From an uncultured Holophagales bacterium (GTDB lineage Bacteria; Acidobacteriota; Thermoanaerobaculia; Multivoradales; UBA5704), in contig CAWJGT010000011.1 of NCBI GenBank assembly GCA_963842525.1, forward strand, positions 96,001-160,000: a stretch of 64,000 nt of DNA, read 5' to 3'. Position 1 is the first letter of the stretch, and each line of letters begins with the position of its first letter. Under the pieces are notes generated by a model that did no database searches, was not told the DNA's origin, and saw only the letters and a program-made list of their open reading frames with translations. Positions 1-48,575 of this stretch are shown one piece after another. Position numbers and translations under genes: made by a program.

Positions 1-704
1 ATCTTCTGGTCGCGCAGGGCCACCTGGTATTCGGTGCCCTGGGCCGGCTGGGGGAGGCGGGGGTAGAAGAAGCCCTTGCCGTCGGCCGTCCAGGCCGCGC
101 AGCAGAGCTTGATCCATTTCAGCACATCGGGCAGGAGCTGGCCGGTCTCGACGTTGAGGACGCGCCAAGTCTGCCAGTCCGAACCCGCCTCGCTGATGGC
201 GTAGGCCACATAGCGGCCGTCGGGGCTCGCCTCGAAGTCGTCGACCGAAACGGACCCGTCCTTGGACCAGGGGTTGGGATCGAGGAGGACCCGGGGCTCG
301 TCGAGCAGGGAGGTCTGCACATAGAGGACCTCCAGGTTCTGGCGCCCGTCGTTGGCGAAGAAGAAATAGCGGCCGCCTTTCTTCTCGGGCACGGTGCGCC
401 GCTCGTAGCTCCACAGCTCCTCCACGCGCTGGCGGATCGCCGTCCGTTCCGGAATGGCCGCCAGCCAGGCGGAGGTGACCTTGTTCTGCGCCTCCACCCA
501 CTGGCGGACCTCGGGCGCCTGCCGCACGTCCGCTTCGAGCCAGCGGTAGGGGTCGGCCACCGGCACGCCGTGGTAGGTGTCGGTCTGGTCGACCCGCCGG
601 CTCGCGGGATAGTCGAGCGGGGCTCCGGCGAGCGGGCCGGCGAGGGCGAGGGCCAGGCAGAATGCAGCGGCCCGCGGGACGGAAACGAGGCAGTGTGAGC
701 GCAT
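1..704 (-). CDS. Prolyl oligopeptidase (S9A), secreted; 5' part only, continues off the window
   Basis: Manual translation: signal peptide, then YPASRRVDQTDTYHGVPVADPYRWLE...WVEAQN...SPDGRYVAYAISEAGSDW, typical of the POP N-terminus and propeller. GGAGGAG RBS upstream of the ATG at 704. Confidence 0.9.
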   Translation of the reverse strand, partial: MRSHCLVSVPRAAAFCLALALAGPLAGAPLDYPASRRVDQTDTYHGVPVADPYRWLEADVRQAPEVRQWVEAQNKVTSAWLAAIPERTAIRQRVEELWSYERRTVPEKKGGRYFFFANDGRQNLEVLYVQTSLLDEPRVLLDPNPWSKDGSVSVDDFEASPDGRYVAYAISEAGSDWQTWRVLNVETGQLLPDVLKWIKLCCAAWTADGKGFFYPRLPQPAQGTEYQVALRDQK

Positions 705-772
705 CGAAAGCTCCTCCGGTCGGGGTCCGGGCAAGGAGCATTCAGGATAGCAGGATGGGGGCGGAGGCCTGC

Positions 773-1291
773 TCACCTCTGTAGATGAGGCCCAAGCCCC
801 GACCAGCCCAGGGACCAGGAGACCAGCCAGTCGTCGCCGTTGCGGAAGATGCCGGCCCGGACCATGGAGTTGAAGATCGGGAAGACCAGGGTCTGTCCCT
901 CGAGGCCGACGTAGGTCTTGCCCGGATCGGCGTGCCAGGGATGGCCCCAGGTCCGCAGGACGGTCGCCCGGACCAGAGCGTGCCCATAGACCGAAACGGC
1001 CCCGTAGCCGGCGCTGAGCTTGCCGCCCCCGAGGCCGGGCTCGGCGGAAAGGACGAAGCCGGTCCCGCCGTAGGGGCTCGTGCTTTTCCCGACATAAAGG
1101 CCAAGGCCGGCGCTCAGCTTCTGCGGAGTCCCGGCCGACACGTCCGCAAGGGTCGTCACGACCCGCTTGCCCTTCCACGACGACGGCTCCGGATCGGAAG
1201 GCGTCTCCTGGGCTTCCTGGCCGAGGACGGCGGTCGCCGCGAGGAGAAGAGCCGGCAGGGCGGTCAGGACCACTCGGACGCGTGATCTCAT
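773..1291 (-). CDS. Hypothetical exported protein, beta-strand rich
   Basis: MRSRVRVVLTALPALLLAATAVLG signal peptide followed by alternating hydrophobic/Gly strands. Its start overlaps the stop of the upstream gene (ATGA). Confidence 0.65.
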   Translation of the reverse strand: MRSRVRVVLTALPALLLAATAVLGQEAQETPSDPEPSSWKGKRVVTTLADVSAGTPQKLSAGLGLYVGKSTSPYGGTGFVLSAEPGLGGGKLSAGYGAVSVYGHALVRATVLRTWGHPWHADPGKTYVGLEGQTLVFPIFNSMVRAGIFRNGDDWLVSWSLGWSGLGPHLQR

Positions 1292-1653
1292 GGCCGGATC
1301 TCGACTGCCGCTCCGTCGGGGACGGCGTCCCAGATCTCCTCGATCTCTTCGCTGGTGACCGCGATGCACCCTAACGTCCAGTCGGTCAGCCGGTGCCGTG
1401 AGCCGACTTCCGCTTGGCCGTTGGGCAGGCCGTGGATCATGATGTCGCCCCCCGGGGAGCAGCGGAGCTTGCGGGACTGCGCCCGATCCTCGGTGTTGGG
1501 ATAGGAGACGTGGAGGGACCGGTGGAACGCCGAATGCGGGTTCCGGTAGTCGATCCGGTAGATCCCTTCCGGCGTCCGCTTGTCCCCTTGGCACCGCTTC
1601 GGTTCGATCGGATTCGGGCATAGCGGTTCCGGTCCGGGTCCTGGTCGCTCCAT
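1288..1653 (-). CDS. L,D-transpeptidase (YkuD family) catalytic domain, apparently N-truncated
   Basis: GDKRTPEGIY...SLHVSYPN...GGDIMIHG...WTLGCIAV contains the conserved His/Cys catalytic motif. Confidence 0.85.
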   Translation of the reverse strand: MERPGPGPEPLCPNPIEPKRCQGDKRTPEGIYRIDYRNPHSAFHRSLHVSYPNTEDRAQSRKLRCSPGGDIMIHGLPNGQAEVGSRHRLTDWTLGCIAVTSEEIEEIWDAVPDGAAVEIRP

Positions 1654-1695
1654 CGTCGTCCTCGCTCTACGGGGATTGGACCGGGGCTGGGTGTG

Positions 1696-2328
1696 TCAGG
1701 TTCCCGGTGAATCCCCCCACCGCAGCCCCGGCTCGCCCGGCTCGGAAATGCCGAAGCAGTCGAGCACCCGCAGGGTGTAGTGGTCGAGGAAGCGGCCCAG
1801 GTTCTCGCCGCCGATGTAGAAGGCCGGGACGGGCGGGAGGAGGACGGCGCCGGCATAGGCGAGGCGGCGCATGTTCTCGATGTGGACGAGGCTGTAGGGG
1901 GTCTCGCGGAAGCCGAGGACCAGGGGCCAGCGCTCCTTCAGGGCGACGGCTCCGGCCCGGTGCACCAGGGTGCGGGCGGAGCCGGACGCGAGCGCTCCGA
2001 GGGTGCCGGCGCTGCAGGGGAGGATCAGGGTGCCGGTCAGCCGGTAGGAGCCGGAGGCGATGGGCGCATCGAGCTCGTTGTCGCGGTGGGTGCGGACTTT
2101 TTCCCGTGCTTCGGGAGGCAGGCCGGCCGCGTCGGCCAGATCGTCGGCGCCGGTCTTGTCCGGCCCGAGCTCGTGGCGGAGCACCTGGCTCGCCCCGGCC
2201 GAGGCGACGAGATGGATACGCTCGATCTCCGGATGGGCCGCCAGCCGGCCCAGCACATGGCGGGGCAGGAGCATCCCGGAGGCGCCGGAGACCAGCAGGG
2301 CGACGCGGTGCGGCATGGCCGGCGCCAT
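1696..2328 (-). CDS. ubiX: UbiX-family flavin prenyltransferase
   Basis: SGASG, APIASGS, PCSAGTL, ALKERWPLVLGFRETP and PPVPAFY motifs. Confidence 0.88.
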   Translation of the reverse strand: MAPAMPHRVALLVSGASGMLLPRHVLGRLAAHPEIERIHLVASAGASQVLRHELGPDKTGADDLADAAGLPPEAREKVRTHRDNELDAPIASGSYRLTGTLILPCSAGTLGALASGSARTLVHRAGAVALKERWPLVLGFRETPYSLVHIENMRRLAYAGAVLLPPVPAFYIGGENLGRFLDHYTLRVLDCFGISEPGEPGLRWGDSPGT

Positions 2329-2404
2329 CGTAACATCCCACTCCTGCGTATAAGACCGTAGTAGTGAGCCAGCGGCCGGATCCCGCTGGCCCGGAGGTGC
2401 CTGG

Positions 2405-4411
2405 ATGAGCCTCTTCCGAGATGTCCGTTACGCCGTGCGGAGCCTGGCGCGGGCTCCCGCGCTCACCGCCGTCACCTTGACGATCCTGACCCTCGGGATC
2501 GGCGCCAACGTCACCATCTTCACCCTGGTCGACCGCCTCTTCCTCGAGCCGCCGCCCGGGATCGCCGAGCCGGAGCGGCTGGTGCGCCTCGGCCGGTTCG
2601 ACAAGGAAGACCCGGAGGCGTGGTGGGGCTATCCGGACTTTGCCTACTTCCGGGAACGCAACCAGGCCTTCTCGGACCTGGCTGCCTACTCCCCGGGGAC
2701 GAACGCCCTCACGGCGATGACGGCCCAGGCGAGCCTGGACAACCAGTCGGCGGCGCTCGCCCGGGATTTTCCGGAGTCGGTGCGCGAGGGCCAGGGCGTG
2801 AGAGTCCTCCCCTCCTTCCAACGTTTTCCCGGTATCCATGATCAGCTTGGGCGGCTCCTGCGGCTGCTCTCGGCCGTGGTCGCCCTGGTGCTGCTGGTGG
2901 CCAGCGCCAATGTGGCGATCCTGCTCCTGGCCCGGGCCATCGGACGGAGCCGGGACTTCGGTGTGCGGGTGGCCCTCGGGGCGAGCCGGCGACGGATCGC
3001 ATACCAGCTCCTCCTGGAGGGCCTGCTGCTGGCCTTCGCCGGAGGCGCCGCCGGCTACCTTCTGGCTTTCTGGTCGGCCGGACTGGCCGCAAAAATGCTG
3101 CCGTTCCAATTCGCGGTGAAGCCCACTCCGGATCTCCGGGTGCTCGGCTTCACGCTCGGCGTTGCCGTGCTGGCAGCCCTCCTTTTTGGCTTGGCTCCGG
3201 CGCTCCAGGCCCGGCGCGTGGACATGGCCGTGGTGATCAAGGAAGGGGAGCCGGCCAGCGGACGCTCGCCGTGGCTCAATGCCCTGGTGACCATCCAGGT
3301 GGCGCTGTCGATCGTCCTGGCCACGGGCGCCCTGCTCTTCGTCCGCAGCCTGCGGGCCGCCGAGTCGGTGGACCTCGGGTTCGCGACCGAGGGGCGGCTT
3401 TTGGTCACCGTCGACCTGGCCCACCGCCGCTACGGGGAGCAGGGGATCGCGCGGTTCCTCGATCAGGCCTTGGACCGGGTGTCGGTGCTGCCCGGAGTGC
3501 GGCGGGCTTCGGCCATGCTCAACCAGCCGTTCGGAAGCAGTTGGAGGACCAGCATCGGCGAGCCGCCGGACGAGGGCCTGACCGTCAGCCTGAATGGGGT
3601 TGGCCCGGGCTATTTCGAAGCCATGGGCATCCCGCTCCTGGCCGGGCGCGGATTCGGGCCGCAGGACCGGACCGGGTCGTCGAAGGTGGCGGTCCTCAAC
3701 CAGGCCGCCGCGGCGAAGCTCTTCCCGCGGGCCCCGGCGGTGGGCCGGACGTTCCAGAGCGGGAGCCTGGGGGCGATCACGGTCGTCGGCCTGGCCCGGA
3801 ACGCCCAGTACCACGACCTGGGGGAGGAGCCGGTCCCCCATATCTATCTGCCGTTCCTCCAGACGGGCCGCGAGCGATTCCACCTGCTGGTGCAGACCGC
3901 CGGCGAGCCGGAAGCCCTGGCGCGGCCGGTAGAGCAGGCGCTCTATGCCATCGATCCGTATGTCACCGTGGCGCAGACCAGGACGATGGAGAAGGCGGTC
4001 GAGAAGGAGCTGGTCCGGTATCGGGTGAGCGCTACGCTTGTCGCCCTCTTCGCCGTGCTGGCGCTGGCGCTGGCCGCGGTGGGCCTCTATGGCGTCCTGT
4101 CCTATCTGGTGGCGCGCCGGCGGAGGGTCCTGGGAATCCAGATGGCCCTGGGAGCCACGACGCAGCACGTGGTGCGCTCGGTCCTGCGCCGTGGGCTGAC
4201 GCTGGCGGGCGCCGGCATCGTCCTCGGCATGGTGGCGGCCTGGTGGGCCTCGCAGTGGATCGCGAGCTTCCTGTTCGGCATCGACCCGCGGGACCCGGTG
4301 AGCTTCCTGGCGGTGCCGGCAATCCTGGTGACAGTGGCCTGCCTCTCCAGCGCGATTCCCGCACTGCGGGCGGCGCGGGTCGACCCTGCGGGGGTGCTGC
4401 GGGAGGAGTAG
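2405..4411 (+). CDS. ABC transporter permease (MacB/FtsX, acidobacterial ADOP type)
   Basis: DVRYAVRSL...LGIGANVTIF, GVRVALGASR, QVALSIVL, AAVGLYGVLSY and RAARVDP motifs. Confidence 0.9.
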   Translation: MSLFRDVRYAVRSLARAPALTAVTLTILTLGIGANVTIFTLVDRLFLEPPPGIAEPERLVRLGRFDKEDPEAWWGYPDFAYFRERNQAFSDLAAYSPGTNALTAMTAQASLDNQSAALARDFPESVREGQGVRVLPSFQRFPGIHDQLGRLLRLLSAVVALVLLVASANVAILLLARAIGRSRDFGVRVALGASRRRIAYQLLLEGLLLAFAGGAAGYLLAFWSAGLAAKMLPFQFAVKPTPDLRVLGFTLGVAVLAALLFGLAPALQARRVDMAVVIKEGEPASGRSPWLNALVTIQVALSIVLATGALLFVRSLRAAESVDLGFATEGRLLVTVDLAHRRYGEQGIARFLDQALDRVSVLPGVRRASAMLNQPFGSSWRTSIGEPPDEGLTVSLNGVGPGYFEAMGIPLLAGRGFGPQDRTGSSKVAVLNQAAAAKLFPRAPAVGRTFQSGSLGAITVVGLARNAQYHDLGEEPVPHIYLPFLQTGRERFHLLVQTAGEPEALARPVEQALYAIDPYVTVAQTRTMEKAVEKELVRYRVSATLVALFAVLALALAAVGLYGVLSYLVARRRRVLGIQMALGATTQHVVRSVLRRGLTLAGAGIVLGMVAAWWASQWIASFLFGIDPRDPVSFLAVPAILVTVACLSSAIPALRAARVDPAGVLREE

Positions 4412-20430: not shown

Positions 20431-21894
20431 TCAATCCGGCCGGGGGGCCGAGCGCTTCACCTTTTCGATGTCGGCGATCACCTTCCGCGTCAGGTCCGCG
20501 GTGGCGACTTCATGCTTCGCAGCCTCGCAGAAGAGCTTCAGCGCCGCCAGGGCCTCCCGCTCGATCCCCTGGTGCCGGAAGATCCACTCCATGGCGACCG
20601 CCATCTGCGCCACCTCTTTCGCGCGCCCCGCTTCCAGCCAGAGCACCGCCAGGTCCAGCCCTGAAAGAGCAGCGTCGTAGGGCAGCTCTTCGGCGGTGAA
20701 CACCCTTTGCGCCTGCTCCAGCCGTTCCATCGCCACCTGCTTTTGCCCCAACCCGGCCATGGTTTTCGCTTCCAGCCAGAGCACGCGGTTGAGGTCCAGG
20801 CGCTTGCGCTGCTTCTCGGCAAGGGAACGCACCTCAGGCATCCACCTGGCGGCCTCCGCATAGCGCTCCAGGTACACCAGGTTGGCAGCCGTGTTGAAGC
20901 GGTGTGCGAAGAGAAGGTGCTCATCACCCACTACCGCAATCTTGGCCGCGGCTTGCTCTAGAGCCACGACTGCGCCCTTGAAATCACACATTTGTTGAAA
21001 GATATTCGCTTTCATCACCAAGAGCCGCGCAATCGCGACGGTATCGATTCCCTGAGCCTCCACCGCCTGGTCGAGGAGAGTTAGGGCTTCGGCAAAGCGG
21101 TGCTGTTCCCGCCGCAGCGAGGCTTCGCGGTCGAGCATCCGCCATCCAGGGAGCAGGCCTTCGGGATCAGCGCCGGCCTTCCTGAGGTTAGCTGCCCGCG
21201 CAAAGTCGGCATCGGCCCCGTCGAAATCGTTGGCTACCCTACGAGCATTGCCAATATAGATCCAACAGTACCCCTGGAGCGCGGCGCGGAAGCCTTCGTC
21301 GCCCTCTGCCTGCTTGGCGATCGCTAGAGCGAGCTCGGCCAGCTCCAATGCCTCTTTGGTGCTGTGGGCCGCGGCGCGCTCGCTTTCGTGGCAGAGCCTC
21401 ACCGCCAGGGCCCAGCTCCGGGAGGCCCGCAGTGAGAAACCCAACCGCCGTTGCCGTTCCTGCATAGGAAAAGGTTCCAGAGCCTGCCAGACCTCGTCCG
21501 CGGCGCGAAGCGCCTCGGTGGGCGGCTGCCGGTCTTCTTCCGCTGCCCACTCTTCGAGGCTCAAGGGGATCTCCGCCAGCAGCCCGGGCTGCACGATGGC
21601 CGGTTTGAACCGGAGATCCCTCCCGCCGACGGCCGGGCCGCGCCTCCTGGTTGAAGCGAGGGCCGCGGCAAAGAAGCGCCGTGCATGCACCACGAGGGAC
21701 CAGTCAACGTCAGCGGCGCCAGCCATCCGCCGAAGCTGCTCCTCTTTCGGTGCAAGCTTTCCCGCCTCCATGAGCGAGATGTCGCTCTGGGAGATCCGGG
21801 CCTTCTCGCCAAATTTCTCCTGCGACATGCCGGCGTGGAAGCGGAGATGCGCCACCACATACTTCAAGACCGCGGGATCACCCTTCCTTGCCAT
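20431..21894 (-). CDS. XRE-family HTH fused to TPR-like helical repeats (putative regulator/peptide receptor)
   Basis: LRFHAGMSQEKFGEKARISQSDISLMEAG HTH, followed by helical repeats (GNARRVAND, RVLWLEAK, YDAALSGLDLA, IEREALAAL). Confidence 0.85.
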   Translation of the reverse strand: MARKGDPAVLKYVVAHLRFHAGMSQEKFGEKARISQSDISLMEAGKLAPKEEQLRRMAGAADVDWSLVVHARRFFAAALASTRRRGPAVGGRDLRFKPAIVQPGLLAEIPLSLEEWAAEEDRQPPTEALRAADEVWQALEPFPMQERQRRLGFSLRASRSWALAVRLCHESERAAAHSTKEALELAELALAIAKQAEGDEGFRAALQGYCWIYIGNARRVANDFDGADADFARAANLRKAGADPEGLLPGWRMLDREASLRREQHRFAEALTLLDQAVEAQGIDTVAIARLLVMKANIFQQMCDFKGAVVALEQAAAKIAVVGDEHLLFAHRFNTAANLVYLERYAEAARWMPEVRSLAEKQRKRLDLNRVLWLEAKTMAGLGQKQVAMERLEQAQRVFTAEELPYDAALSGLDLAVLWLEAGRAKEVAQMAVAMEWIFRHQGIEREALAALKLFCEAAKHEVATADLTRKVIADIEKVKRSAPRPD

Positions 21895-22010: not shown

Positions 22011-22313
22011 ATGTCCCATGTCTCGCTGCGTCGCAAGCTCGCCTTCCTCCTGCTCCTCGCCTTCTTCGCCGCCCCTTGGGCCACCGTGGCCGGGGAGCGG
22101 AGCGGAAGCCAACGGCCGCTGCAATCCGCCGCGGTCGAGTCCTTGAACCTCGCCGGCCGCCTGTGGCGCCTCCTGACGCGCGTCTGGAGTGAGACAGGCT
22201 GCATGATCGACCCAGGCGGCCGCTGCATCCCCGGCACGGGCGACGCGCCTGCGGCAACGACCCAGGGGGACGAAGGCTGCCAGATCGACCCATCGGGCCG
22301 CTGTGTGTCCTGA
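22011..22313 (+). CDS. Small secreted propeptide with two GCxIDPxGRC cores
   Basis: GGGAGA RBS; signal peptide MSHVSLRRKLAFLLLLAFFAAPWATVA; cores ETGCMIDPGGRC and DEGCQIDPSGRC. Confidence 0.8.
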   Translation: MSHVSLRRKLAFLLLLAFFAAPWATVAGERSGSQRPLQSAAVESLNLAGRLWRLLTRVWSETGCMIDPGGRCIPGTGDAPAATTQGDEGCQIDPSGRCVS

Positions 22314-22317
22314 TCCT

Positions 22318-23829
22318 TCAACCCCGGCCTCCCGGCGCGTTGCCCGGCCGGGAGGCCGAGCGCATCACCTTTTCGATGTCGGCGCTCACCTGCCCGGCCA
22401 GCTCCACGGTGGCGGCCTCCTGCCTGGCCGCATCGCAGAAGAGCTTCAGAGCCGCCAGGGCCTCCCGGTCGATCCGCTGGTGCCGGAAGATCCACTGCAT
22501 GGCGTTCGCCAACTGCCGCACTTCCTTCGAGCGGCCCGCTTCCAGCCAGAGCATAGCCAGATCCAGACCTGAAAGCGCTGCGTCGTAAGGGAGCTCTTCG
22601 GCGGTGAAGGTCCCCTGTACCTGTTCCAGCCGCGCCATTGCCTCCTGCTTCTGCCCCAGCCCGGCCATCGCCTTCGCTTCCAACCAGAGCACGCGGGTGA
22701 GGTCTAGGAGCTTGCGCTGCTGCTCGGCGAGAGCGCGCACCGCTGGCAGCCGCCGGGCGGCCTCTTCGTAGCGCTCCACATAGAACAGGTTGATACAGGT
22801 GTTGAACCGCAGGGCGAAAATCAGCGGCTCGTCGCCCATCCTTTCGATTGCAGGTGCGGCTTCCGCTAGAGCCGTTAGCGCACCTTCAAAATCACCCATC
22901 TGTTGAAGGATATTAGCCCTTACCAATCGGAGTCGCGCGGTCGCTAGAGCATCGCTCCTGTGTGCCGCCACTGCCCGGTCAAGTAGCGAAAGTGCTTCCG
23001 GGAACTGGTGCTGTTCCCGCCTTAGCGCGGCCTCGCGCTCGAGCATCCGCCAAGTAGGAAGTAGGCCGTCGGGGTTAGCCCCGACCTTCCAGAAGTCGGC
23101 GGCGCGGGCAAAGTCGGCATCGGCTCCATCGAAGTCGTTGCCGACCCGCCGGGCATTGGCGATGTAGATCCAGCAATACGCCTGGAGCGCGGCGCCGAAG
23201 CGGGTGTCGCCCTGGAAATGCTCGGCCATGAAGAGGGCGAGCCGCGCGAGCTCCAGCGCCTCCTTGGCGCTGTGGGCCGCGGCGCGCTCGCTTTCATGGC
23301 AGACCTTCACGGCGAGGGCCCAGCGGCGGTATTCGGGGAAGGTGAGGACCTGGTCGCGCCATTCTTCGCGCGGAACGGTCTTCAATTTGGCCCACAGCTC
23401 GGTGGCATCGCGGTGAGCCGCTGCCGCCTTTTCCTGTTTGCGTTTGCGGACCAGCTCGGCGCGCACCTCGCGGACGAGCGCCCAGCCATGGGTCATGACC
23501 GTGCGGAGGATGCGCTGGCGCTCTTCTGGAGTGAGGGCCACGGGCGAGGCCGACTCGTCAACGGACGGGGGCACGACCAGCTCGTGGAGGAAGAGGAGGA
23601 GATCGACGGCCTCGGGGGGCTGGCCGATGCGGCCCACCAGCTCCTCGAGCTGCTCACGACTCAGTGTCTGGCTGCCGATCTCGTAGCGGCGGAGCAGCTT
23701 TTCGTTGATCCTGAGGAGGTCGGCGCCGTCCTTGGGGATCGGGGCCACGAGGGCGCGGAGGTAGAGCAACGCCATGGCGGTGGCCGGGGTGATGTCCTGC
23801 TCTGGTTCCGGGGGTGTGTCCGGGCTCAT
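22318..23829 (-). CDS. Degenerate XRE-HTH + TPR-like protein, paralogue of 20431..21894
   Basis: LLYLRAL...LLRRYEIGSQTLSREQLEEL; shares CHESERAAAHS, NARRVxNDFDGADADF and EELPYDAALSGLDLA with the first copy. Confidence 0.85.
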   Translation of the reverse strand: MSPDTPPEPEQDITPATAMALLYLRALVAPIPKDGADLLRINEKLLRRYEIGSQTLSREQLEELVGRIGQPPEAVDLLLFLHELVVPPSVDESASPVALTPEERQRILRTVMTHGWALVREVRAELVRKRKQEKAAAAHRDATELWAKLKTVPREEWRDQVLTFPEYRRWALAVKVCHESERAAAHSAKEALELARLALFMAEHFQGDTRFGAALQAYCWIYIANARRVGNDFDGADADFARAADFWKVGANPDGLLPTWRMLEREAALRREQHQFPEALSLLDRAVAAHRSDALATARLRLVRANILQQMGDFEGALTALAEAAPAIERMGDEPLIFALRFNTCINLFYVERYEEAARRLPAVRALAEQQRKLLDLTRVLWLEAKAMAGLGQKQEAMARLEQVQGTFTAEELPYDAALSGLDLAMLWLEAGRSKEVRQLANAMQWIFRHQRIDREALAALKLFCDAARQEAATVELAGQVSADIEKVMRSASRPGNAPGGRG

Positions 23830-23975
23830 GCCTGTCTCCCTGAAGACCTCTTTCAGAAAGAAGGTTGCCGCACCAAGGAAATCTGTGACACGCGGGAAAC
23901 CGGACGCAGATAGTCCATATGAAATCGCGGCGGCCGGATCAGGCAATTGTGCAGCCGCCCTACGATGCCCCTGCA

Positions 23976-25473: not shown

Positions 25474-26776
25474 GTGGACGGCCATTTGAGTCGAGAGGCA
25501 TTGAGCCGGATGTTCGCGGGAGGGGACGAGCGGGACGCCGCGCAGGTGCTTCACCTGCTGGACTGCGAGCCTCTGCTTCGCCCTGGCCCAGGAATTCCTG
25601 GCGGCCTGCCAGGAGGACGAAGACGGCGGGAGCGAGCTGCTGTGGGGGCCGGTCGGGGTGCCGGTGGAGACGGCGGTCTGGGCCGCCGAAGCGGCGCCGT
25701 TGTACGCCGAGCTGCTCGGCCTGGCGGCGCCGCGCCGTTTCGAGGCGATCCGGGAGGCGCGGTTCAAGAACCTGTTTCTGGCGGAGCTGCTCCTGCGGGA
25801 AGGCGAGCGGCTCGCACCGGCAGAGCCGGAGAAGTCGGAAGAGCTGGCCCTCCTCGCCTATCACCTCGGAGGGTCTACGTATCCGCGGGAGCTGAGCGTC
25901 TGGGTCGAAGAGGTCGTGGCGCGGTCCTGCTGCCTGTTGGGGAACGCCCGCCGCGTGGGTGGAGACCTGGAGGGTGCCGACAAGAGGTTTCGCATGGCGT
26001 CGGCCGCTCTGGCAGTGCCTCCGGATTCGCCGGTGCGGGCCTTTTTCTGCCAGATGCTGGCCTATTTGCGCGAGGACCAGAGCCGCGACCGGGAGGCCGA
26101 GCCGCTGCTCTGGCGAGCGGCCCGGATCTACCGCGAGGCAGGGCGGAGAGCGCCGCAGGGGGAATGCAATTGCCGGCTTGGCTTCCTTTTCTTGCGGGCA
26201 TACGACCTGGAGAGGGCGGCATCGGTCCTGTTGCGCGCCTGGCTGCTGCTCCAGGATGCGGGCTCGCCGTTGCTTGCGGCGCGCTCAGGCCTCGGCCTGG
26301 CCGTCTGTCTGGCGGCGCTCGGGCAGCCCAGGGCGGCCAGAGTCCTGCTGGAACAGTGCCGCGAGCTGACGACCGTGTGGCAAGGCGACTCCGCAGAGCT
26401 GGTCCGTCTGCACTGGCTGGAGGGCAGGATCGAAGCGCACCTCGGCGACCTGGCGGAAGCGGTGCCGCGTCTCGAAGCCGTGCGCCGCCGGCTGTTGGAC
26501 GAGGAGAAGCTGGTGGAGAGCGCCCTCTGCACCATCGACCTGGCGACCGTGTACGCAAAGGTCGGCCGGGCAGAGGACATCCTGCCTCTGATTCATGAAA
26601 TCGCCGCCCATTTTCCGGGCTCCCTCGGCCTGACGCGCATCCTGGTGGCGTTGTGCGGTGTGCTGAACACGGCCCACCTGGGCGAGGGCGACCTCGAAAC
26701 CGTGGCCCGCAGGGCGGTGGGCCTGATCCTCCGTCCCGAGGAGTGGCACGAGCCGCCTCCTCCGGAGGAAAACTGA
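25474..26776 (+). CDS. ZAS-like zinc finger + TPR-like protein, frameshift near 25572
   Basis: MDGHLSREALSR...HLLDCExC, then GNARRVGGD, LHWLEGRI and SALCTIDLA in ORF 25658..26776. Confidence 0.78.
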
Positions 26777-43883: not shown

Positions 43884-44346
43884 GGTGCCAATCCAGCACT
43901 TCGCCCGTGTACGCGTCTCTGCCGTTGCTTCGGAGAACGGCGGCATGTATGGCTTGTTTGTAGCTCGACTTGGTAACAGCGAGGTTGCCGCGCCCTCGGT
44001 CACGTCGGCAGTGGGCATGGGCCTTTCGGTCAAGCCAGCTCGGCAGCGGAGACCTGTGTGGTTACGAATCCGGGAGGGACGTACTTGGGAACCATCGGGG
44101 TAGATTGCTACATTCGATAGCTATTATAGAGCACCTAAGGCTAACCTCACTTCTCCTCACTTCAAGGATTCACCGGCCCCACGCTTTCCAGTCTTACCCG
44201 TTGAAGTCTGCCGGTCCGTCCCACAGCGGAGGCGTTGGTGCCCTTTGGCAGTCCCGGCCGGCTGCCGATGCCCGACCTTACTTATATGAAGGGCGGGCTC
44301 CGGTGGCAACGTCGCCGCCTGGGACCCGCCCTCGAGGAGCGGACCC

Positions 44347-44619
44347 ATGCCCCGATGTCGTCTCCGCAGCGCCCTTCTCCTTCTGGCGATCCTTGTCCTC
44401 CTTCCCGGAGTCGCCGCCGCCCGGCCGGTTACTTCTGACTCCGGCGGCCCAGCCGCTCTACGCCCCCCCGCACTCTTCGCCGCCGTCCTTTCCCGCCTTG
44501 TCGACCTTGTCTCCTTCTTCTGGGCTGCCGACTCGGCGGACACGGGCATGTCCATCGACCACCACGGCCCGCCGGGAGAGACGGTCGACACGGGCATGAC
44601 GATCGACCCTCACGGCTAG
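44347..44619 (+). CDS. Small secreted propeptide with two DTGMxIDxHG cores
   Basis: GAGGAG RBS; signal peptide MPRCRLRSALLLLAILVLLPGVAAA; cores DTGMSIDHHG and DTGMTIDPHG at the C-terminus. Confidence 0.8.
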   Translation: MPRCRLRSALLLLAILVLLPGVAAARPVTSDSGGPAALRPPALFAAVLSRLVDLVSFFWAADSADTGMSIDHHGPPGETVDTGMTIDPHG

Positions 44620-44627
44620 CTGGCACG

Positions 44628-44666
44628 CTCGGGGACCGGAGCGCCGGAGCCGGTCTCCGAGGTTTC
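44628..44666 (+). terminator. Hairpin after the peptide gene
   Basis: ctcggggaccgg...ccggtctccgag followed by gtttct. Confidence 0.5.
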
Positions 44667-44735
44667 TGAATTGGGTGTCACAGAATCCCTTCCAGCGGCA
44701 ACTAAGTATCTAGAGATCGATGTGGAGGAGAGAGC

Positions 44736-45980
44736 ATGGAACATTCGCATCTGTCGCAGGAGACGCTCGCGAGGTGGCTGGCCGGCCGGCTGGAGCACGA
44801 GGCCGTGCTCAGCGAGGTCGTTCCTCACTTCCTGTCCAACTGCACCGTCTGCCGGGATCGGGTCGCAGAGATCCGCAAGCTCCAGGAGGAGGTCGGCCAC
44901 TGGGACGAGGAGGTGGCTGTCATCGAAGGGCAGGAGGCTCCCGAGCTGCTGAGGAGGATCGAGGATCAACCTTTCGCGGAGCAGGCCCGGCGAGCGGAGC
45001 AAGACGACGCCCTGCACACCTGGGGCCTGTGTCACCTTCTGCTGAAGAAGAGCCTCGACCGGATTTCGGACGAGCCTGCCAGGGCACTCGATCTGGCCGA
45101 TCTGGCCGTGCGGATCTCCCGGCACCTCGGCGAGGCCTATCATCCGGCCTGGGTGCTCGGTCTGCGGGCCCGAGCCTTTGCCTACCTCGCCAATGCCCGC
45201 CGGGTGCTCGGCGAGCTGCGCAGCTCCGAAGCGGCCTTCCGCAAGGCCGAGGCCTGTCTCGATCGCAGCGGGCTCGGGGACCCGGGGACCGAGGCCGAGA
45301 TCCTCGATATGAAGAGCTCGCTTCGACGTGAGGCCTTGGAGCTATCGGACCGTGCGCTCGCTCTATACCGGGAGGCCCGGGACACTCATGGGGTTGGTAT
45401 CGGTCTCCTCAAGAAAGGCAAGATCCTTGAGGAGGCCGGCGATCTGGGTCCGGCCGAATGGCTCCAGCAGAGCGCCGCCGAAATCGACGCTTCAGGCGAT
45501 CCTCGCCTTTCGACCTCTCTCCGGTACAACCTCGTGGGCTGCCTGACCCTGGCCGGCCGCCATTCCGAGGCGGAGCGGCTGCTGCCGGAGGTGCGGTCGT
45601 TGTTTCAGGAAACGGCGCAGCCCTTGGACTGGGTCCGGCTGCGGTGGGCCGAGGGGTCCATCGCCTGCGGGTTGGGGCGGACCGGGGAGGCCGAGCCCGC
45701 CTTCCGCGAGGTCCAGCGCGAGTTCCTGGACCGTGGCATGGACTACAACGCCGCCCTGGTCGCCCTCGATTTGGCTGGCCTCCTCGCCCACGAGGGGCGC
45801 ACCGCCGAGCTGAAGAGTCTCGCTGCCGAGCTTTTGCAGGCTTTCGAGATGCGGGAGATCTACCGCGAGGCGGCGGCTGTCTTTCTCCTTTTCCGTCAGG
45901 CGTGTGAGGAGGAGCGTTTCACCAACGAGCTCGCGCGTCACCTGGCCAGCCTGCTGCGCGAGCGGCGGAGGGACAGATAG
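44736..45980 (+). CDS. ZAS-like zinc finger + TPR-like protein
   Basis: HLSQETLARWLAG...PHFLSNCTVC; ANARRVLGE, LRWAEGSIA, YNAALVALDLA and IYREAAA. Confidence 0.85.
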   Translation: MEHSHLSQETLARWLAGRLEHEAVLSEVVPHFLSNCTVCRDRVAEIRKLQEEVGHWDEEVAVIEGQEAPELLRRIEDQPFAEQARRAEQDDALHTWGLCHLLLKKSLDRISDEPARALDLADLAVRISRHLGEAYHPAWVLGLRARAFAYLANARRVLGELRSSEAAFRKAEACLDRSGLGDPGTEAEILDMKSSLRREALELSDRALALYREARDTHGVGIGLLKKGKILEEAGDLGPAEWLQQSAAEIDASGDPRLSTSLRYNLVGCLTLAGRHSEAERLLPEVRSLFQETAQPLDWVRLRWAEGSIACGLGRTGEAEPAFREVQREFLDRGMDYNAALVALDLAGLLAHEGRTAELKSLAAELLQAFEMREIYREAAAVFLLFRQACEEERFTNELARHLASLLRERRRDR

Positions 45981-45984
45981 ACGT

Positions 45985-46425
45985 GCCCGCGAACCAGCGT
46001 CACCTCACGCTGGAGCAGTGTCCCGAGACACTGGCTCAGCGTACGCTCCGCAAACCCAGCGTGAGCTCACGCTGGCACAGCGTGTCGAGACACTGGCCCA
46101 GCGCACGCTCCGCAAACTCAGCGTGAGCTCACGCTGGCGCAGCGTTCCGAGACACCGGCTCAGCGTGTGCTCCACAAACCCAGCGTGAGCTCACACTGGC
46201 GCAGCGTGTCGAGACACTGGCCCAGCGTGCGCTCCGCAAACCAGCGTCAGCTCACGCTGGCGTAGCGTCCCGAGACGCTGGCTCAGCGCACGCTCCGCAA
46301 ACCCAGCGTGAGCTCACGCTGGCGCAGCGTCCCGAGACACTGGCTCAGCGTCCCGAGACACTGGCTCAGCGTGCGCTCCGCAAAGCCAGCGTGCTGCTCC
46401 GCAAACCCAGCGTCAGCTCGCGCTT
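45985..46425. repeat. Tandem 62-bp repeat (20+21+21 bp subunits), each with a perfect 20-bp palindrome
   Basis: Consensus ccagcgtgagctcacgctgg-cgcagcgtcccgagacactgg-ctcagcgtgcgctccgcaaac, about 6-7 copies, no unique spacers. Confidence 0.92.
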
Positions 46426-47058: not shown

Positions 47059-47162
47059 TGAGAGCCAGCCAGCCGGACGAGCATCCCAGGTCGTCTCCGC
47101 GAGGTTCGCGCTGGCGTATCGGGAGGGGACGCCGCTCCGGTTCAAGAAGGAGGAAAACCCTC

Positions 47163-47327
47163 ATGCTCAGGTGGGCCCTGATTTTTCTGGTCGTCGCGCT
47201 GGTCGCCGCTCTGGTCGGTTTCGGCGGTATCGCGTCGGGCGCGGCGGGCATCGCCAAGATCTTGTTCGTGCTGTTCCTCGTCGTCTTCGTCGTCTCGCTG
47301 GTCCTCGGGCTGGTGCGGCGGGCGTGA
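47163..47327 (+). CDS. DUF1328 (YtjA-like) small membrane protein
   Basis: [35 protein letters not shown]. Confidence 0.9.
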
Positions 47328-47420
47328 AGGAAGGCGCGGACCCAGCCGGGGTCCCGCGCCGTAGAATGACATCCGGAGCCGCCCGCCGGTCCTCATGAGG
47401 AGCCCGCCGTGGAGGCGGCC

Positions 47421-48575
47421 ATGAGGTCCATGATGCTCGAGCCTTTCCGGCGGGAGCGGCGGTCCGAAGAAGAGGAAGAAGGGCAGTTCCCGCGCCCGAA
47501 TATCCGCCGCTTGCGGGACCTCATCCAGGCGCCGTTCGGCATCCGGTCGCTGGCGCTGACCGGCCTCTTCGTCCTCGCCGCCTTCTATACCCTGTTTCTC
47601 GCGCGCTCCTTCATCCTGCCGATCATCCTCGCCCTGCTGCTCAATTTCCTGCTCAGCCCGGTGGTGCGGGGTCTCAAGAACCGGCTCCGTATCCCGGAGG
47701 GGCTGGGAGCGGCGCTGGTCGTCTTCGGTTTTCTCGGCTCCCTGGGCTGGGGCATCTACGAGCTCTCGGGCCCCGCGTACGAGTGGGCCCAGAAAGCGCC
47801 GCAGCAGATCCGGCGCCTGGAGCGCAAGCTGGCCGAGTTCAAGAAGCCCGTCCAGACGATGAGCAAGGCGACCCAGCAGGTGGAGAAGATGACCGAGGTG
47901 GGGGGCGGCCCCGCGACGCGCAAGGTGGAAGTGCAGACCGAGACCTTCGGCGAGCGGATGTTCAGCCAGGCCACCGAGCTGGTCGCCGGAGGTGTGGTGA
48001 TGTTCATCCTCCTCTTCTTCCTGCTCGCCTCGGGGGACCTCTTCCTGCGCAAGCTCATCCGGGTGCTCCCCAGGCTGGCGGACAAGAAGCGGGCGGTGGA
48101 GATCGCCCGCCAGATCGAGAGCGATGTTTCCACGTATCTGGTGACCATCACCATCATCAACGTCGGCCTCGGGCTCGCCACCTGGGGGCTTCTGGCGTTG
48201 CTCGGCGTGCCCAACCCGCTGCTCTGGGGTGTCCTGGCCACGGTGACGAACTACATCCCTTATCTGGGTGCGCTGATCATGTACGCGGTGCTTGCCATGG
48301 TCGGCTTCCTCACCTTCGACACGCTCGGCCAGTCGCTCCTGGTGCCGGGAGTCTTCGCCGGGTTGAACCTCCTGGAGAGCTATCTGGTCACGCCGATGGT
48401 GCTGGGCCGGCGGTTGACGCTCAATCCGGTGGTGATCTTCCTCGGCCTGACGTTCTGGGGATGGCTGTGGGGGATCACGGGCGCGCTGCTCGCCGTGCCC
48501 ATCATGGTGGTGGTCAAGATCATCTGCGACCACAGCGAGCCGCTGGCGCCGATCGGCGAGTTCCTGGGGGATTGA
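47421..48575 (+). CDS. AI-2E family transporter
   Basis: LLSPVV, NYIPYLG, TPMVLGRRLTLNPV and WGITGALLAVP motifs. Confidence 0.92.
   Translation: MRSMMLEPFRRERRSEEEEEGQFPRPNIRRLRDLIQAPFGIRSLALTGLFVLAAFYTLFLARSFILPIILALLLNFLLSPVVRGLKNRLRIPEGLGAALVVFGFLGSLGWGIYELSGPAYEWAQKAPQQIRRLERKLAEFKKPVQTMSKATQQVEKMTEVGGGPATRKVEVQTETFGERMFSQATELVAGGVVMFILLFFLLASGDLFLRKLIRVLPRLADKKRAVEIARQIESDVSTYLVTITIINVGLGLATWGLLALLGVPNPLLWGVLATVTNYIPYLGALIMYAVLAMVGFLTFDTLGQSLLVPGVFAGLNLLESYLVTPMVLGRRLTLNPVVIFLGLTFWGWLWGITGALLAVPIMVVVKIICDHSEPLAPIGEFLGD

What the first reader, a model, noticed from the sequence alone, without database searches (positions are those of the whole stretch)
44347..45980. Second, independent peptide + TPR pair with a different core sequence
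Seen: a 90-aa ORF with the same layout (signal peptide, spacer, helix ending FFW, two cores DTGMSIDHHG and DTGMTIDPHG) lies directly upstream of a TPR-family gene with an N-terminal HxxxxCxxC zinc finger instead of an HTH. The four cores give the consensus [DE]xGxxID[PH]xG. Inference: finding the pairing twice within about 25 kb, with diverged cores (Cys-free here), suggests a paralogous family of receptor/ligand specificity groups. DPxG also recalls the RHS self-cleavage motif and contains an acid-labile Asp-Pro bond, a possible processing clue.
Basis: partly seen in the sequence, partly recalled or inferred. Interest (0 to 1): 0.8.

Follow-up and report, generated by a model that had tools for sequence, protein, structure and literature searches.

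The report
Secreted repeat-peptide plus TPR receptor pair
A small exported peptide gene carrying two copies of a short conserved motif sits directly in front of a cytoplasmic repeat-protein sensor gene, one of about sixty such pairs in this acidobacterial genome, an arrangement that looks like the peptide quorum-sensing circuits known from Gram-positive bacteria but has never been tested.

Summary
The 90-aa ORF (44347-44619, +) has a Sec-type signal peptide, an aromatic helix and two cores (DTGMSIDHHG, DTGMTIDPHG, the last ending at the stop). It lies 117 bp upstream of a 414-aa soluble TPR protein (44736-45980) with an N-terminal HxxxxCxxC motif. A profile of such peptides finds 67 ORFs in this 9.95-Mb Thermoanaerobaculia (Acidobacteriota) genome. 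58 of the 67 lie within 1 kb of a paralog of the TPR gene (background 3.6%). No third gene recurs beside them. In 17 of 17 distinct orthologous loci from other genomes the peptide gene is kept upstream, and the cores are its best-conserved part. Cores co-diverge with the adjacent TPR. The TPR domain resembles peptide-binding TPR superhelices (LGN/Pins, then NprR and Rap). The pair meets all five signature criteria used to detect RRNPP quorum-sensing systems, but in a diderm phylum, with unannotated families and a zinc-finger output domain. The best reading (about 0.5) is a secreted multi-core propeptide sensed by its neighbouring cytoplasmic TPR receptor. Binding, processing and import are inferred, not shown. 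The RHS self-cleavage idea is not supported. My searches found no published description.

The parts
44347..44619 (+). Propeptide gene, 90 aa plus stop
   Evidence: ORF list and sequence. Member of a 67-ORF family in this genome (E 2.7e-13 to the in-house profile). Orthologs lie upstream of the orthologous TPR gene in 17 of 17 distinct loci.
44347..44421 (+). Predicted Sec signal peptide (aa 1-25; basic n-region, LLLLAILVLL core, AAA then RP)
   Evidence: Read from the sequence. 64 of 67 family members have a 12-aa window with Kyte-Doolittle mean above 2.0. SignalP was not on hand, so the cleavage site is inferred.
44470..44523 (+). Amphipathic aromatic helix (ALFAAVLSRLVDLVSFFW), the family-wide 'LWxxLxxxW' element just before the first core
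   Evidence: Alignments A1 and A3. The helix character is inferred from the sequence pattern.
44539..44568 (+). Core 1, DTGMSIDHHG
   Evidence: Motif scan. Column conservation among 18 orthologs is 0.72, against 0.27 for the linker.
44587..44616 (+). Core 2, DTGMTIDPHG, ending at the stop codon
   Evidence: Motif scan. Column conservation is 0.78; G83, I86, D87, P88 and G90 are invariant in 18 orthologs. 21 of 64 distinct family members end exactly at DPxG.
44736..45980 (+). Soluble TPR protein, 414 aa (candidate receptor)
   Evidence: AlphaFold2 model with mean pLDDT 85.6, all-helical. Maximum 19-aa hydropathy is 0.96, so no membrane segment. Orthologs share 50-67% identity across the family.
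44736..44906 (+). N-terminal helical domain with H31-x4-C36-x2-C39 (44826-44852), a putative zinc site
   Evidence: H5, P30, H31, C36 and C39 are invariant in 17 orthologs. The only family match is a weak one to ChrR anti-sigma (E 0.016). zf-HC2 is not among the Pfam families listed.
45009..45977 (+). TPR superhelix (aa about 92-414)
   Evidence: VIA-align: LGN Z 20.5, Pins 19.6, NprR-NprX 17.4, RapH 17.3, RapI 17.0 over model residues about 92-394. Foldseek agrees.
22011..22313 (+). Propeptide gene of the first pair (Cys-bounded cores ETGCMIDPGGRC, DEGCQIDPSGRC)
   Evidence: E 8.1e-30 to the family profile.
20431..21894 (-). XRE-HTH + TPR regulator, divergent from the first peptide gene
   Evidence: HTH_31 E 1.3e-7. 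Model pLDDT 84.6. Pins Z 24.1, RapI 20.3, RapH 18.9, NprR 18.0.
22318..23835 (-). Second TPR paralog, convergent with the first peptide gene (start uncertain; the frame is open up to 24300)
   Evidence: 66% identical to the HTH-TPR over residues 122-486.

Best explanation
The pair is a two-gene peptide-signalling module that works on the logic of Gram-positive RRNPP systems. The 90-aa product is exported by Sec and its signal peptide is removed. The pro-region is then cut to release one or both short cores of the type x-G-M-[ST]-I-D-P-x-G, the last of which is already the C-terminus. The released peptide is sensed by the adjacent cytoplasmic TPR protein in its concave groove. That changes what the small N-terminal domain does. 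In this pair that domain is a Cys/His putative zinc domain acting on a protein partner, possibly a sigma factor. In the first pair it is an XRE helix-turn-helix acting on DNA.

The genome holds about sixty such modules with different cores, that is, many private channels.

Shown: the gene pair, its layout, the size of the family, the tight linkage, conservation concentrated in the cores, co-divergence of core and TPR, a soluble TPR fold of the peptide-binding kind, and the absence of a linked third gene.

Inferred: export, cleavage, the identity of the mature peptide, re-entry into the cytoplasm across two membranes, binding to the TPR, and the output.
For: (1) Linkage. 58 of 67 profile hits lie within 1 kb of a TPR paralog; so do 36 of the 43 hits that were not used to build the profile. 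The background is 3.6% of all 56,816 ORFs of 45-299 aa. 73 of 94 TPR-paralog ORFs have such a peptide within 1 kb.

(2) Minimal module. Among 537 neighbouring ORFs the only large cluster is the TPR family (63). The second cluster (10) I did not check; I guess it to be frames opposite TPR genes. No other cluster exceeds 8 (those 8 are the peptides themselves).

(3) Conservation. The peptide lies upstream of the orthologous TPR gene in 7 of 7 loci and 11 of 11 loci. One locus is common to both sets, so 17 are distinct. Cores are the best-kept part: 0.72 and 0.78, against linker 0.27, spacer 0.38, helix 0.48 and signal peptide 0.52.

(4) Specificity pattern. Cores within one precursor differ at 2.45 of 6 variable positions, against 4.12 between precursors. 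Core distance correlates with the distance of the adjacent TPR: Mantel r 0.25, 0 of 2000 permutations as high; r 0.385 within the 33 same-strand pairs.

(5) Topology. The peptide has a signal-peptide-like N-terminus. The TPR protein has no hydrophobic segment.

(6) Fold. The TPR domain aligns best with peptide-binding TPR superhelices. Among bacterial proteins the best are RRNPP receptors solved with their peptides or partners: NprR-NprX Z 17.4, RapH 17.3, RapI 17.0, phi105 Rap with peptide 16.7. A profile of the orthologs against PDB sequences gives RapH at E 1.3e-3.

(7) All five criteria of the RRNPP signature in PMC10075063 (passages) are met.

(8) Propeptides with several pheromone copies are known in Rap-Phr systems (PMC11343458, abstract).

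(9) The last core sits at or within 8 residues of the C-terminus in 54 of 64 distinct peptides. From my own knowledge, not from a call: mature PapR, Phr and AimP peptides also come from the propeptide's C-terminal end.

(10) Opp/Dpp-type binding proteins are present (3 SBP_bac_5 matches).
Against: No experiment and no binding evidence exists. Linkage and co-divergence follow from duplication of a module as a unit and do not show contact.

TPR superhelices resemble each other generically. Eukaryotic LGN/Pins score above the RRNPP receptors, and for helical repeats Z up to about 13 can be a common arrangement. Sequence similarity to Rap is marginal (E 1.3e-3 and 0.05).

The organism is diderm (6 Omp85 matches). 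An exported peptide therefore lands in the periplasm and would have to leave and re-enter through an outer membrane, or act without leaving the cell. No importer or protease is linked to the pairs.

The precursors are longer than typical RRNPP propeptides. They carry a family-wide conserved aromatic helix that the RRNPP model does not explain.

The output of the zinc-finger type is unknown. Only 4 of 47 sigma-70 region-2 matches lie within 3 kb of a TPR paralog.

The D-P-x-G part is nearly invariant across paralogs, so only about 3-5 positions could encode specificity.
Confidence: 0.5

Rival explanations
1. Regulator and cargo only. The TPR protein is a dedicated regulator of the adjacent exported peptide, which has an extracellular job of its own (antimicrobial, adhesive, metal- or mineral-binding). 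The TPR domain senses something other than the peptide.
For: Tight adjacency and likely co-transcription; no terminator-like site was found between the two genes. HTH-type members are divergent from the peptide gene, as is usual for local regulators. The conserved acidic D-P-[ND]-G repeats and Cys-x7-Cys loops could serve an extracellular function.
Against: About sixty different cargo peptides, each with a private regulator, have no linked immunity, export or modification genes. The cores co-diverge with the TPR. The zinc-finger type has no recognisable DNA-binding domain.
Confidence: 0.2
2. RiPP-like precursors. The conserved aromatic helix is a leader recognised by one or a few maturases encoded elsewhere, and the repeated cores are cut out and modified, as with many scattered precursors served by one enzyme. 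The TPR proteins act as regulators, chaperones or immunity factors.
For: The layout is a conserved leader-like helix plus 1-3 variable repeated cores with Cys. The helix is shared by all paralogs while the cores vary.
Against: No modifying enzyme or transporter recurs beside the pairs. The precursors carry Sec signal peptides, which is unusual for RiPP leaders (my own knowledge). Many cores lack Cys, Ser or Thr patterns typical of known classes. No Pfam or NCBIfam precursor family matches.
Confidence: 0.1
3. Secretion or envelope-state sensor. The TPR protein binds the unexported precursor (signal peptide or aromatic helix) in the cytoplasm, so that the output reports how well export is running rather than cell density.
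For: It avoids the problem of re-import across two membranes in a diderm. The aromatic helix is conserved across all paralogs. The N-terminal domain is anti-sigma-like in sequence pattern (weak ChrR match, E 0.016).
Against: It does not explain why the cores are the best-conserved part among orthologs and differ between paralogs. It does not explain why sixty parallel copies would be needed.
Confidence: 0.1
4. The small ORF is not a gene; the motif is a chance product of high-GC sequence.
For: High-GC genomes hold many long spurious frames (52 ORFs of 40 aa or more in 5 kb). No RNA data are available.
Against: Reversed-sequence control: 0 frames with two or more motifs, against 20 observed. 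The frame, signal peptide and cores are kept in 17 of 17 distinct orthologous loci, with variable linkers. 78 database proteins match the profile at E of 1e-3 or lower.
Confidence: 0.02

Closest known systems
RRNPP(A) peptide quorum-sensing systems of Bacillota, especially Rap-Phr (receptor without a DNA-binding domain) and NprR-NprX / PlcR-PapR (HTH-TPR receptors)
   Same: A two-gene module: a small Sec-exported propeptide next to a 250-500-aa cytoplasmic TPR receptor (signature in PMC10075063). The N-terminal output domain is either HTH or a protein-interaction domain. Many paralogous pairs occur per genome; more than 25 pairs in some Paenibacillus (PMC7425212, seen only as the start of its abstract in the listing). 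Several pheromone copies can sit in one propeptide (PMC11343458, abstract). The TPR fold is similar (Z 17-20 to NprR, RapH, RapI).
   Different: The phylum is a diderm Acidobacteriota, not Bacillota. There is no significant sequence homology beyond generic TPR (RapH E 1.3e-3). The precursors have a conserved aromatic helix and a nearly invariant D-P-x-G core, often Cys-bounded. The HxxxxCxxC N-terminal domain is, to my knowledge, not described for RRNPP receptors. The expansion, about 60 pairs, is far larger. In the HTH type two TPR genes flank one peptide gene.
Zinc-binding anti-sigma factors (ZAS; RsrA, ChrR, RslA type)
   Same: The N-terminal pattern is of the kind L..WL.G.L....(about 10)..H-x3/4-C-x2-C, with a weak ChrR-family match (E 0.016, residues 4-55). 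Paralogs in other families of the order carry Hx3Cx2C. The canonical ZAS motif Hx3Cx2C is recalled, not taken from a call.
   Different: This pair has Hx4Cx2C. Pfam zf-HC2 is not among the families listed for 17 orthologs. There is no adjacent sigma-factor gene: 4 of 47 region-2 matches lie within 3 kb of any TPR paralog. The C-terminal part is a soluble TPR superhelix rather than a membrane span with an outer domain.
LGN/Pins TPR domains (eukaryotic), MalT domain III and AfsR TPR
   Same: These are the best structural matches (LGN Z 20.5, Pins 19.6-24.1, MalT 15.2-16.4). Pfam TPR_MalT gives E 1.1e-10. AfsR gives E about 1e-3. LGN binds extended peptides inside the superhelix (entry titles).
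   Different: The domain context is unrelated and none has a cognate adjacent peptide gene. The similarity is at the level of the repeat fold.

Membership tests
RRNPP-type quorum-sensing pair (signature of RRNPP_detector, PMC10075063) | Propeptide is small (10-100 aa) | tested here: met
   90 aa. Other family members are 61-128 aa from the chosen starts.
RRNPP-type quorum-sensing pair (signature of RRNPP_detector, PMC10075063) | [quoted passage not shown] | tested here: inconclusive
   The sequence shows a basic n-region, a hydrophobic core and AAA before RP. 64 of 67 members have a strongly hydrophobic 12-aa window. SignalP itself was not available.
RRNPP-type quorum-sensing pair (signature of RRNPP_detector, PMC10075063) | Receptor is 250-500 aa long | tested here: met
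   414 aa. The HTH type of the first pair is 487 aa.
RRNPP-type quorum-sensing pair (signature of RRNPP_detector, PMC10075063) | Receptor harbours TPRs | tested here: met
   TPR_12 at 30.9 bits, over the 30.1 cut-off. 17 of 17 orthologs match TPR_12. The AlphaFold2 model is a TPR superhelix.
RRNPP-type quorum-sensing pair (signature of RRNPP_detector, PMC10075063) | Propeptide and receptor genes are direct neighbours | tested here: met
   117-bp gap, same strand. 58 of 67 genome-wide lie within 1 kb.
RRNPPA receptor superfamily (homology) | Detectable homology of the receptor to Rap, Rgg, NprR, PlcR, PrgX or AimR | tested here: inconclusive
   Profile against PDB sequences: RapH E 1.3e-3, RapF 0.05, over one or two repeats only. 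Structure: NprR Z 17.4, RapH 17.3, PlcR 14.7, AimR 13.5, but LGN and Pins score higher. No RRNPP-specific Pfam or NCBIfam family is hit.
RRNPPA receptor superfamily (homology) | Mature peptide is re-imported and binds the TPR groove, changing receptor activity | not testable with these tools
   Needs biochemistry. Only the presence of 3 Opp/Dpp-type binding proteins in the genome was seen.
RRNPPA receptor superfamily (homology) | Occurrence in Bacillota and their mobile elements | tested here: not met
   Relatives' record titles read Thermoanaerobaculia / Acidobacteriota. Omp85 is present.
ZAS anti-sigma factors | Hx3Cx2C zinc motif in an N-terminal anti-sigma domain (motif recalled) | tested here: inconclusive
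   Hx4Cx2C here, invariant in 17 orthologs. ChrR-family match at E 0.016, 15 bits against a cut-off of 124.5. zf-HC2 is not among the 25 families listed of 41.
ZAS anti-sigma factors | Cognate ECF sigma-factor gene adjacent | tested here: not met
   No sigma gene lies beside this pair. 4 of 47 Sigma70_r2 matches are within 3 kb of any of 94 TPR-paralog ORFs.
   No RHS or YD family was listed among Pfam or NCBIfam matches for the 22 peptides at E up to 1. DPxG is followed by the stop or by x-Cys.
RiPP precursor with cis-encoded maturase | Modifying enzyme or dedicated transporter encoded beside the precursor | tested here: not met
   No recurrent neighbour family apart from the TPR genes among 537 flanking ORFs. 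Enzymes encoded elsewhere are not excluded.

The most novel reading that the evidence does not exclude
Thermoanaerobaculia run a very large private peptide code. Dozens of exported multi-core propeptides per genome are each read by its own cytoplasmic TPR receptor, which is coupled either to DNA binding (HTH type) or to sequestration of a protein partner such as a sigma factor (zinc-finger type). This would be an independently evolved, or extremely diverged, counterpart of RRNPP quorum sensing. It would be the first genetically encoded peptide-pheromone / cytoplasmic-receptor system in a diderm phylum, with the largest number of channels known in one genome.
Probability: 0.4. Interest if true: 0.9.

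Novelty: new variant of a known kind. Interest (0 to 1): 0.75.

Why it matters
Peptide signalling through cytoplasmic TPR receptors is treated in the papers I read as a trait of Gram-positive Bacillota and their phages and plasmids (PMC10075063 and PMC9765709, passages). A two-gene module with the same logic in Acidobacteriota, expanded to about sixty pairs in one genome, would change that picture. It would also raise the question of how a peptide signal crosses a diderm envelope in both directions.

It would give a handle on regulation in a barely cultured lineage. It would offer a large natural set of short-peptide / TPR specificity pairs for studying and engineering recognition. The claim can be tested directly: the candidate ligands are 8-12-residue unmodified or disulfide-closed peptides, and the receptors are soluble 400-aa proteins.

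Tried and rejected
(1) Complex prediction with the TPR alignment A2 and residues 27-90 of the peptide alignment A3 gave no verdict (score 0.00, under the mark). This is neither support nor evidence against.

(2) The look-up of sequencing runs: no RNA holder is listed. Nothing is said here about expression or habitat.

The single TPR protein was used instead.

(4) Pfam and NCBIfam scans of 22 peptides found only scattered single-member matches at E of 0.03 or higher. The weak sig_GCG_CRPN_rpt match (E 0.12, 1 of 22) was not pursued.

(5) ESM Atlas: the nearest clusters are unnamed 'hypothetical protein' clusters, mostly Acidobacteriota, at score 0.90. This is a lead only.

(6) Sigma-factor linkage was considered, to explain the zinc-finger domain as a cis anti-sigma, and rejected: 4 of 47.

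(7) The promoter and terminator scan around the pair found one promoter-like site on the minus strand and two terminator-like sites inside the TPR gene, none informative. A 40-nt imperfect palindrome spanning the peptide start (44297-44370, 70% complementary) was not followed up.

(8) A crude typing of N-termini in the 63-member TPR cluster gave 16 with H-x3/4-C-x2-C, 9 with an HTH-like start by BLAST and 38 unassigned. It is too rough to use, because ORF starts are uncertain and some ORFs are fragments.

(9) 9 of 63 TPR-cluster ORFs have a 19-aa window with hydropathy above 1.6. I did not check whether these are membrane segments.

(10) EF-hand-like or other calcium-loop readings of the core were considered by eye and dropped, because the spacing does not fit the pattern as I recall it. 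No tool was used.

(11) An earlier run of the alignment and profile script hit the time limit and was repeated with faster settings.
Full report
**1. The observation**

The ORF 44347-44619 (+) encodes 90 residues. It has four parts:
- a basic N-terminus and a hydrophobic stretch ending AAA before RP, which looks like a signal peptide;
- a Pro/Gly/Ser-rich spacer;
- a hydrophobic-aromatic segment, ALFAAVLSRLVDLVSFFW;
- after AADSA, two ten-residue cores, DTGMSIDHHG (44539-44568) and DTGMTIDPHG (44587-44616), the second ending at the stop codon.

The two cores are also a tandem duplication at DNA level: 42 nt, 79% identity, spacing 48.

A 414-aa ORF (44736-45980) starts 117 bp downstream on the same strand. 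It carries H31-x4-C36-x2-C39 near its N-terminus. It matches TPR_12 over the cut-off and TPR_MalT at E 1.1e-10, which is under that family's cut-off. No terminator-like site lies between the two genes.

Its peptide gene (22011-22313, +) has two Cys-bounded cores. Two minus-strand TPR genes flank it. The upstream, divergent one carries an XRE-type HTH.

**2. More than chance**

In the reversed translations it occurs 25 times in 25 frames. Twenty frames hold two or more motifs, against none in the control. All twenty show the same layout of signal peptide, aromatic helix and repeated cores.

**3. Size of the family and linkage**

I built a profile from 23 distinct motif-selected peptides and searched all ORFs under 300 aa. 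It found 67 ORFs at E of 1e-3 or lower, 64 of them distinct.
- 58 of the 67 lie within 1 kb of an ORF that matches one of the window's three TPR proteins (blastp E of 1e-5 or lower).
- Of the 43 hits not used to build the profile, 36 are so linked.
- Only 3.6% of all 56,816 ORFs of 45-299 aa are so linked.
- Conversely, 73 of 94 TPR-paralog ORFs have such a peptide within 1 kb. The 94 include fragments and perhaps some overlapping frames.

Two arrangements recur:
- Same strand: peptide then TPR, with a gap mostly of 40-500 bp. This finding is of that kind.
- Opposite strand: a Cys-core peptide flanked by TPR genes, one divergent and one convergent. The first pair is of that kind.

The second arrangement is kept in another genus: G009 contig C531 has a TPR gene at 495-1925 (-), the peptide at 2039-2338 (+) and a TPR gene at 2379-3809 (-).

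I clustered 537 ORFs flanking the peptides. The TPR family (63 members) is the only large cluster. The second cluster (10) I did not check; I guess it to be frames opposite TPR genes. The peptides themselves form a cluster of 8, and nothing else exceeds 5. No protease, transporter, modifying enzyme or sigma factor is a regular neighbour. Only 4 of 47 Sigma70_r2 matches lie within 3 kb of a TPR paralog.

**4. Organism and distribution**

Record titles of the closest relatives read Thermoanaerobaculia, Thermoanaerobaculaceae or Acidobacteriota. The genome encodes Omp85-family proteins (6 matches), as expected for a diderm.

The TPR protein has matches in 29 of 31 related genomes. That includes 18 of 18 genomes of the same family, with 16 to 59 matches each.

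The paralog peptide profile (A1) gave these results:

| Sample | Genomes with a match |
|---|---|
| Same family | 3 of 3 (14-31 matches each) |
| Five other families of the same order | 0 of 25 genomes |
| Another family of the class | 8 of 28, weak partial matches only |
| Whole class sample | 12 of 121 |
| Phylum-wide sample, besides G000, at E of 1e-4 or lower | 0 of 200 |

Looking by eye beside zinc-finger TPR paralogs in other families of the order, 3 of 9 loci showed a signal-peptide ORF with an aromatic helix and a single core ending in DPNGG or IDPDG. One more had a short doubtful candidate. The rest showed none by a crude filter. The module therefore extends beyond the family in more diverged form.

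In the 5.8-billion-protein collection, 78 proteins match the profile at E of 1e-3 or lower. Every name given is 'hypothetical protein', and where an organism is named it is Thermoanaerobaculia. No Pfam or NCBIfam family covers the peptides. The nearest ESM Atlas clusters are unnamed.

**5. Orthologs of this pair**

L029 and L002 are the same record, so 17 loci are distinct.

In the alignment of 18 orthologous peptides the last core is G-x-x-I-D-P-x-G, with G83, I86, D87, P88 and G90 invariant. By region, the mean majority fraction is:

| Region | Mean majority fraction |
|---|---|
| Core 2 | 0.78 |
| Core 1 | 0.72 |
| Signal peptide | 0.52 |
| Helix | 0.48 |
| Spacer | 0.38 |
| Linker | 0.27 |

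Selection therefore acts chiefly on the cores. L030 was left out of the TPR alignment because its frame holds a stop. Its peptide was kept.

**6. Pattern of variation**

Within one precursor the cores differ at 2.45 of 6 variable positions on average. Between precursors they differ at 4.12 (38 precursors).

Over 50 non-redundant pairs, core distance correlates with the distance between the adjacent TPR domains: Mantel r 0.25, with 0 of 2000 permutations as high. Within the 33 same-strand pairs r is 0.385, again 0 of 2000. This is what duplication of whole modules followed by joint divergence produces. It does not by itself show contact.

The last core is at the C-terminus (21) or within 8 residues of it (33, of which 26 have a closing Cys) in 54 of 64 distinct peptides.

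**7. The TPR proteins**

The AlphaFold2 model of the 414-aa protein (17 orthologs, mean pLDDT 85.6) is all-helical. It has four short N-terminal helices around the His/Cys motif and a superhelix from about residue 92. Its highest 19-residue hydropathy is 0.96, so it has no membrane segment.

An exhaustive structural comparison gave:

| Chain | Z |
|---|---|
| LGN | 20.5 |
| Pins | 19.6 |
| APPBP2 | 19.5 |
| NprR with NprX | 17.4 |
| RapH | 17.3 |
| RapI | 17.0 |
| phi105 Rap with peptide | 16.7 |
| MalT domain III | 15.2 |
| PlcR | 14.7 |
| AimR | 13.5 |

Foldseek gave the same order: LGN first at E about 1e-4, RapF at 7e-4.

The HTH-TPR of the first pair (model pLDDT 84.6) gave Pins 24.1, LGN 23.8, RapI 20.3, RapH 18.9 and NprR 18.0.

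These values are above the level the tool gives as common for helical repeats (about 13). But a eukaryotic TPR domain tops both lists, so they show the class of fold, not descent. A profile of the orthologs against PDB sequences reaches gamma-SNAP, AfsR and RapH only at about 1e-3.

The N-terminal domain has no family assignment. There is a ChrR anti-sigma match at E 0.016, and zf-HC2 is not among the listed Pfam matches of 17 orthologs. Its sequence pattern resembles zinc anti-sigma domains as I recall them. Paralogs elsewhere in the order have Hx3Cx2C.

**8. Reading**

The shown facts are these:
- a minimal two-gene module;
- an exported small protein next to a soluble TPR protein with a small N-terminal output domain;
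- conservation focused on short repeated cores at the C-terminus;
- many paralogous modules with different cores.

They fit best a propeptide and its cytoplasmic receptor, the logic of RRNPP systems. The pair meets the five signature criteria listed in PMC10075063 (passages read), with Sec export judged by eye and hydropathy only. Propeptides with several pheromone copies are described for Rap-Phr (PMC11343458, abstract).

The steps from export to binding are inferred. The main difficulties are:
- the diderm envelope;
- the lack of a linked importer or protease, although 3 Opp/Dpp-type binding proteins exist in the genome;
- the unexplained family-wide aromatic helix;
- the near-invariant D-P-x-G, which leaves few positions for specificity;
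- the unknown output of the zinc-finger type.

I put this reading at about 0.5. The rivals are regulator plus cargo (0.2), RiPP-like precursors served by enzymes encoded elsewhere (0.1), a sensor of unexported precursor (0.1), and not a gene (0.02).

**9. Comparison and novelty**

The module works like an RRNPP pair, but membership in the RRNPPA superfamily is not established. Homology is inconclusive and the phylum differs. The RHS analogy fails.

As for print:
- The terms 'RRNPP' with 'Acidobacteria' gave 0 papers.
- 'Thermoanaerobaculia' with 'tetratricopeptide' gave one unrelated paper.
- A five-term search on Acidobacteriota, quorum sensing, peptide, receptor and TPR listed 15 of 276 papers, none of which mentions Acidobacteriota.

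These searches cover only the held library, and no supplements were read.

Earlier notes of this same scan describe the same kind of cassette in other Acidobacteriota genomes and reach the same reading. They are unchecked AI notes and not independent evidence. They do agree with the spread seen here.

**10. Verdict**

This is a real, conserved and heavily expanded peptide + TPR module, apparently undescribed. The best reading is RRNPP-like peptide sensing in a diderm phylum. Interest is 0.75.

Noticed in passing
window 45987-46413: Directly after the stop of the TPR gene lies a tandem array with period 62 nt, 5.9 copies and 85% matches, built from about 21-nt sub-units (CAGCGT...). It has no unique spacers, so it does not look like CRISPR. 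Its function is unknown.
   Followed up: partly
window 25474-26776 (+): A third TPR paralog in the window appears frameshifted inside its zinc-finger motif. The N-terminus (..HLLDCEP) is in one frame and the rest (CFALAQEF.. onwards, about 370 aa) in the next. It is either a pseudogene or an assembly error. The profile found no peptide ORF beside it.
   Followed up: partly
G000 contig C34, about 43.6-47.9 kb: This is the one place where sigma-factor genes do lie beside the module. The order is Sigma70_r2 match (43598), TPR paralog (44061-45434), peptide (45503-45853), a second Sigma70_r2 match (46015), then a second TPR paralog (47103-47870).
   Followed up: no
G000 contig C9, about 424-438 kb: A run of at least six TPR paralogs alternates with single-core peptides of the type ..TGPCIDP[LM]G.. 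/ ..TGSCIDPQG... This is a local tandem amplification of the module.
   Followed up: no
window 44297-44370: A 40-nt imperfect palindrome (70% complementary) spans the start codon of the peptide gene. An AT-rich stretch at 44100-44160 stands out in this 68% GC window.
   Followed up: no
G000 contigs C9:4004-4408 and C18:2594-2998; C10:32938-33213 and C8:904-1179; C18:42535-42825 and C19:528567-528857: Identical peptide ORFs, with their TPR neighbours, occur near contig ends on two contigs each. These are either recent duplications or the same repeat assembled twice.
   Followed up: no
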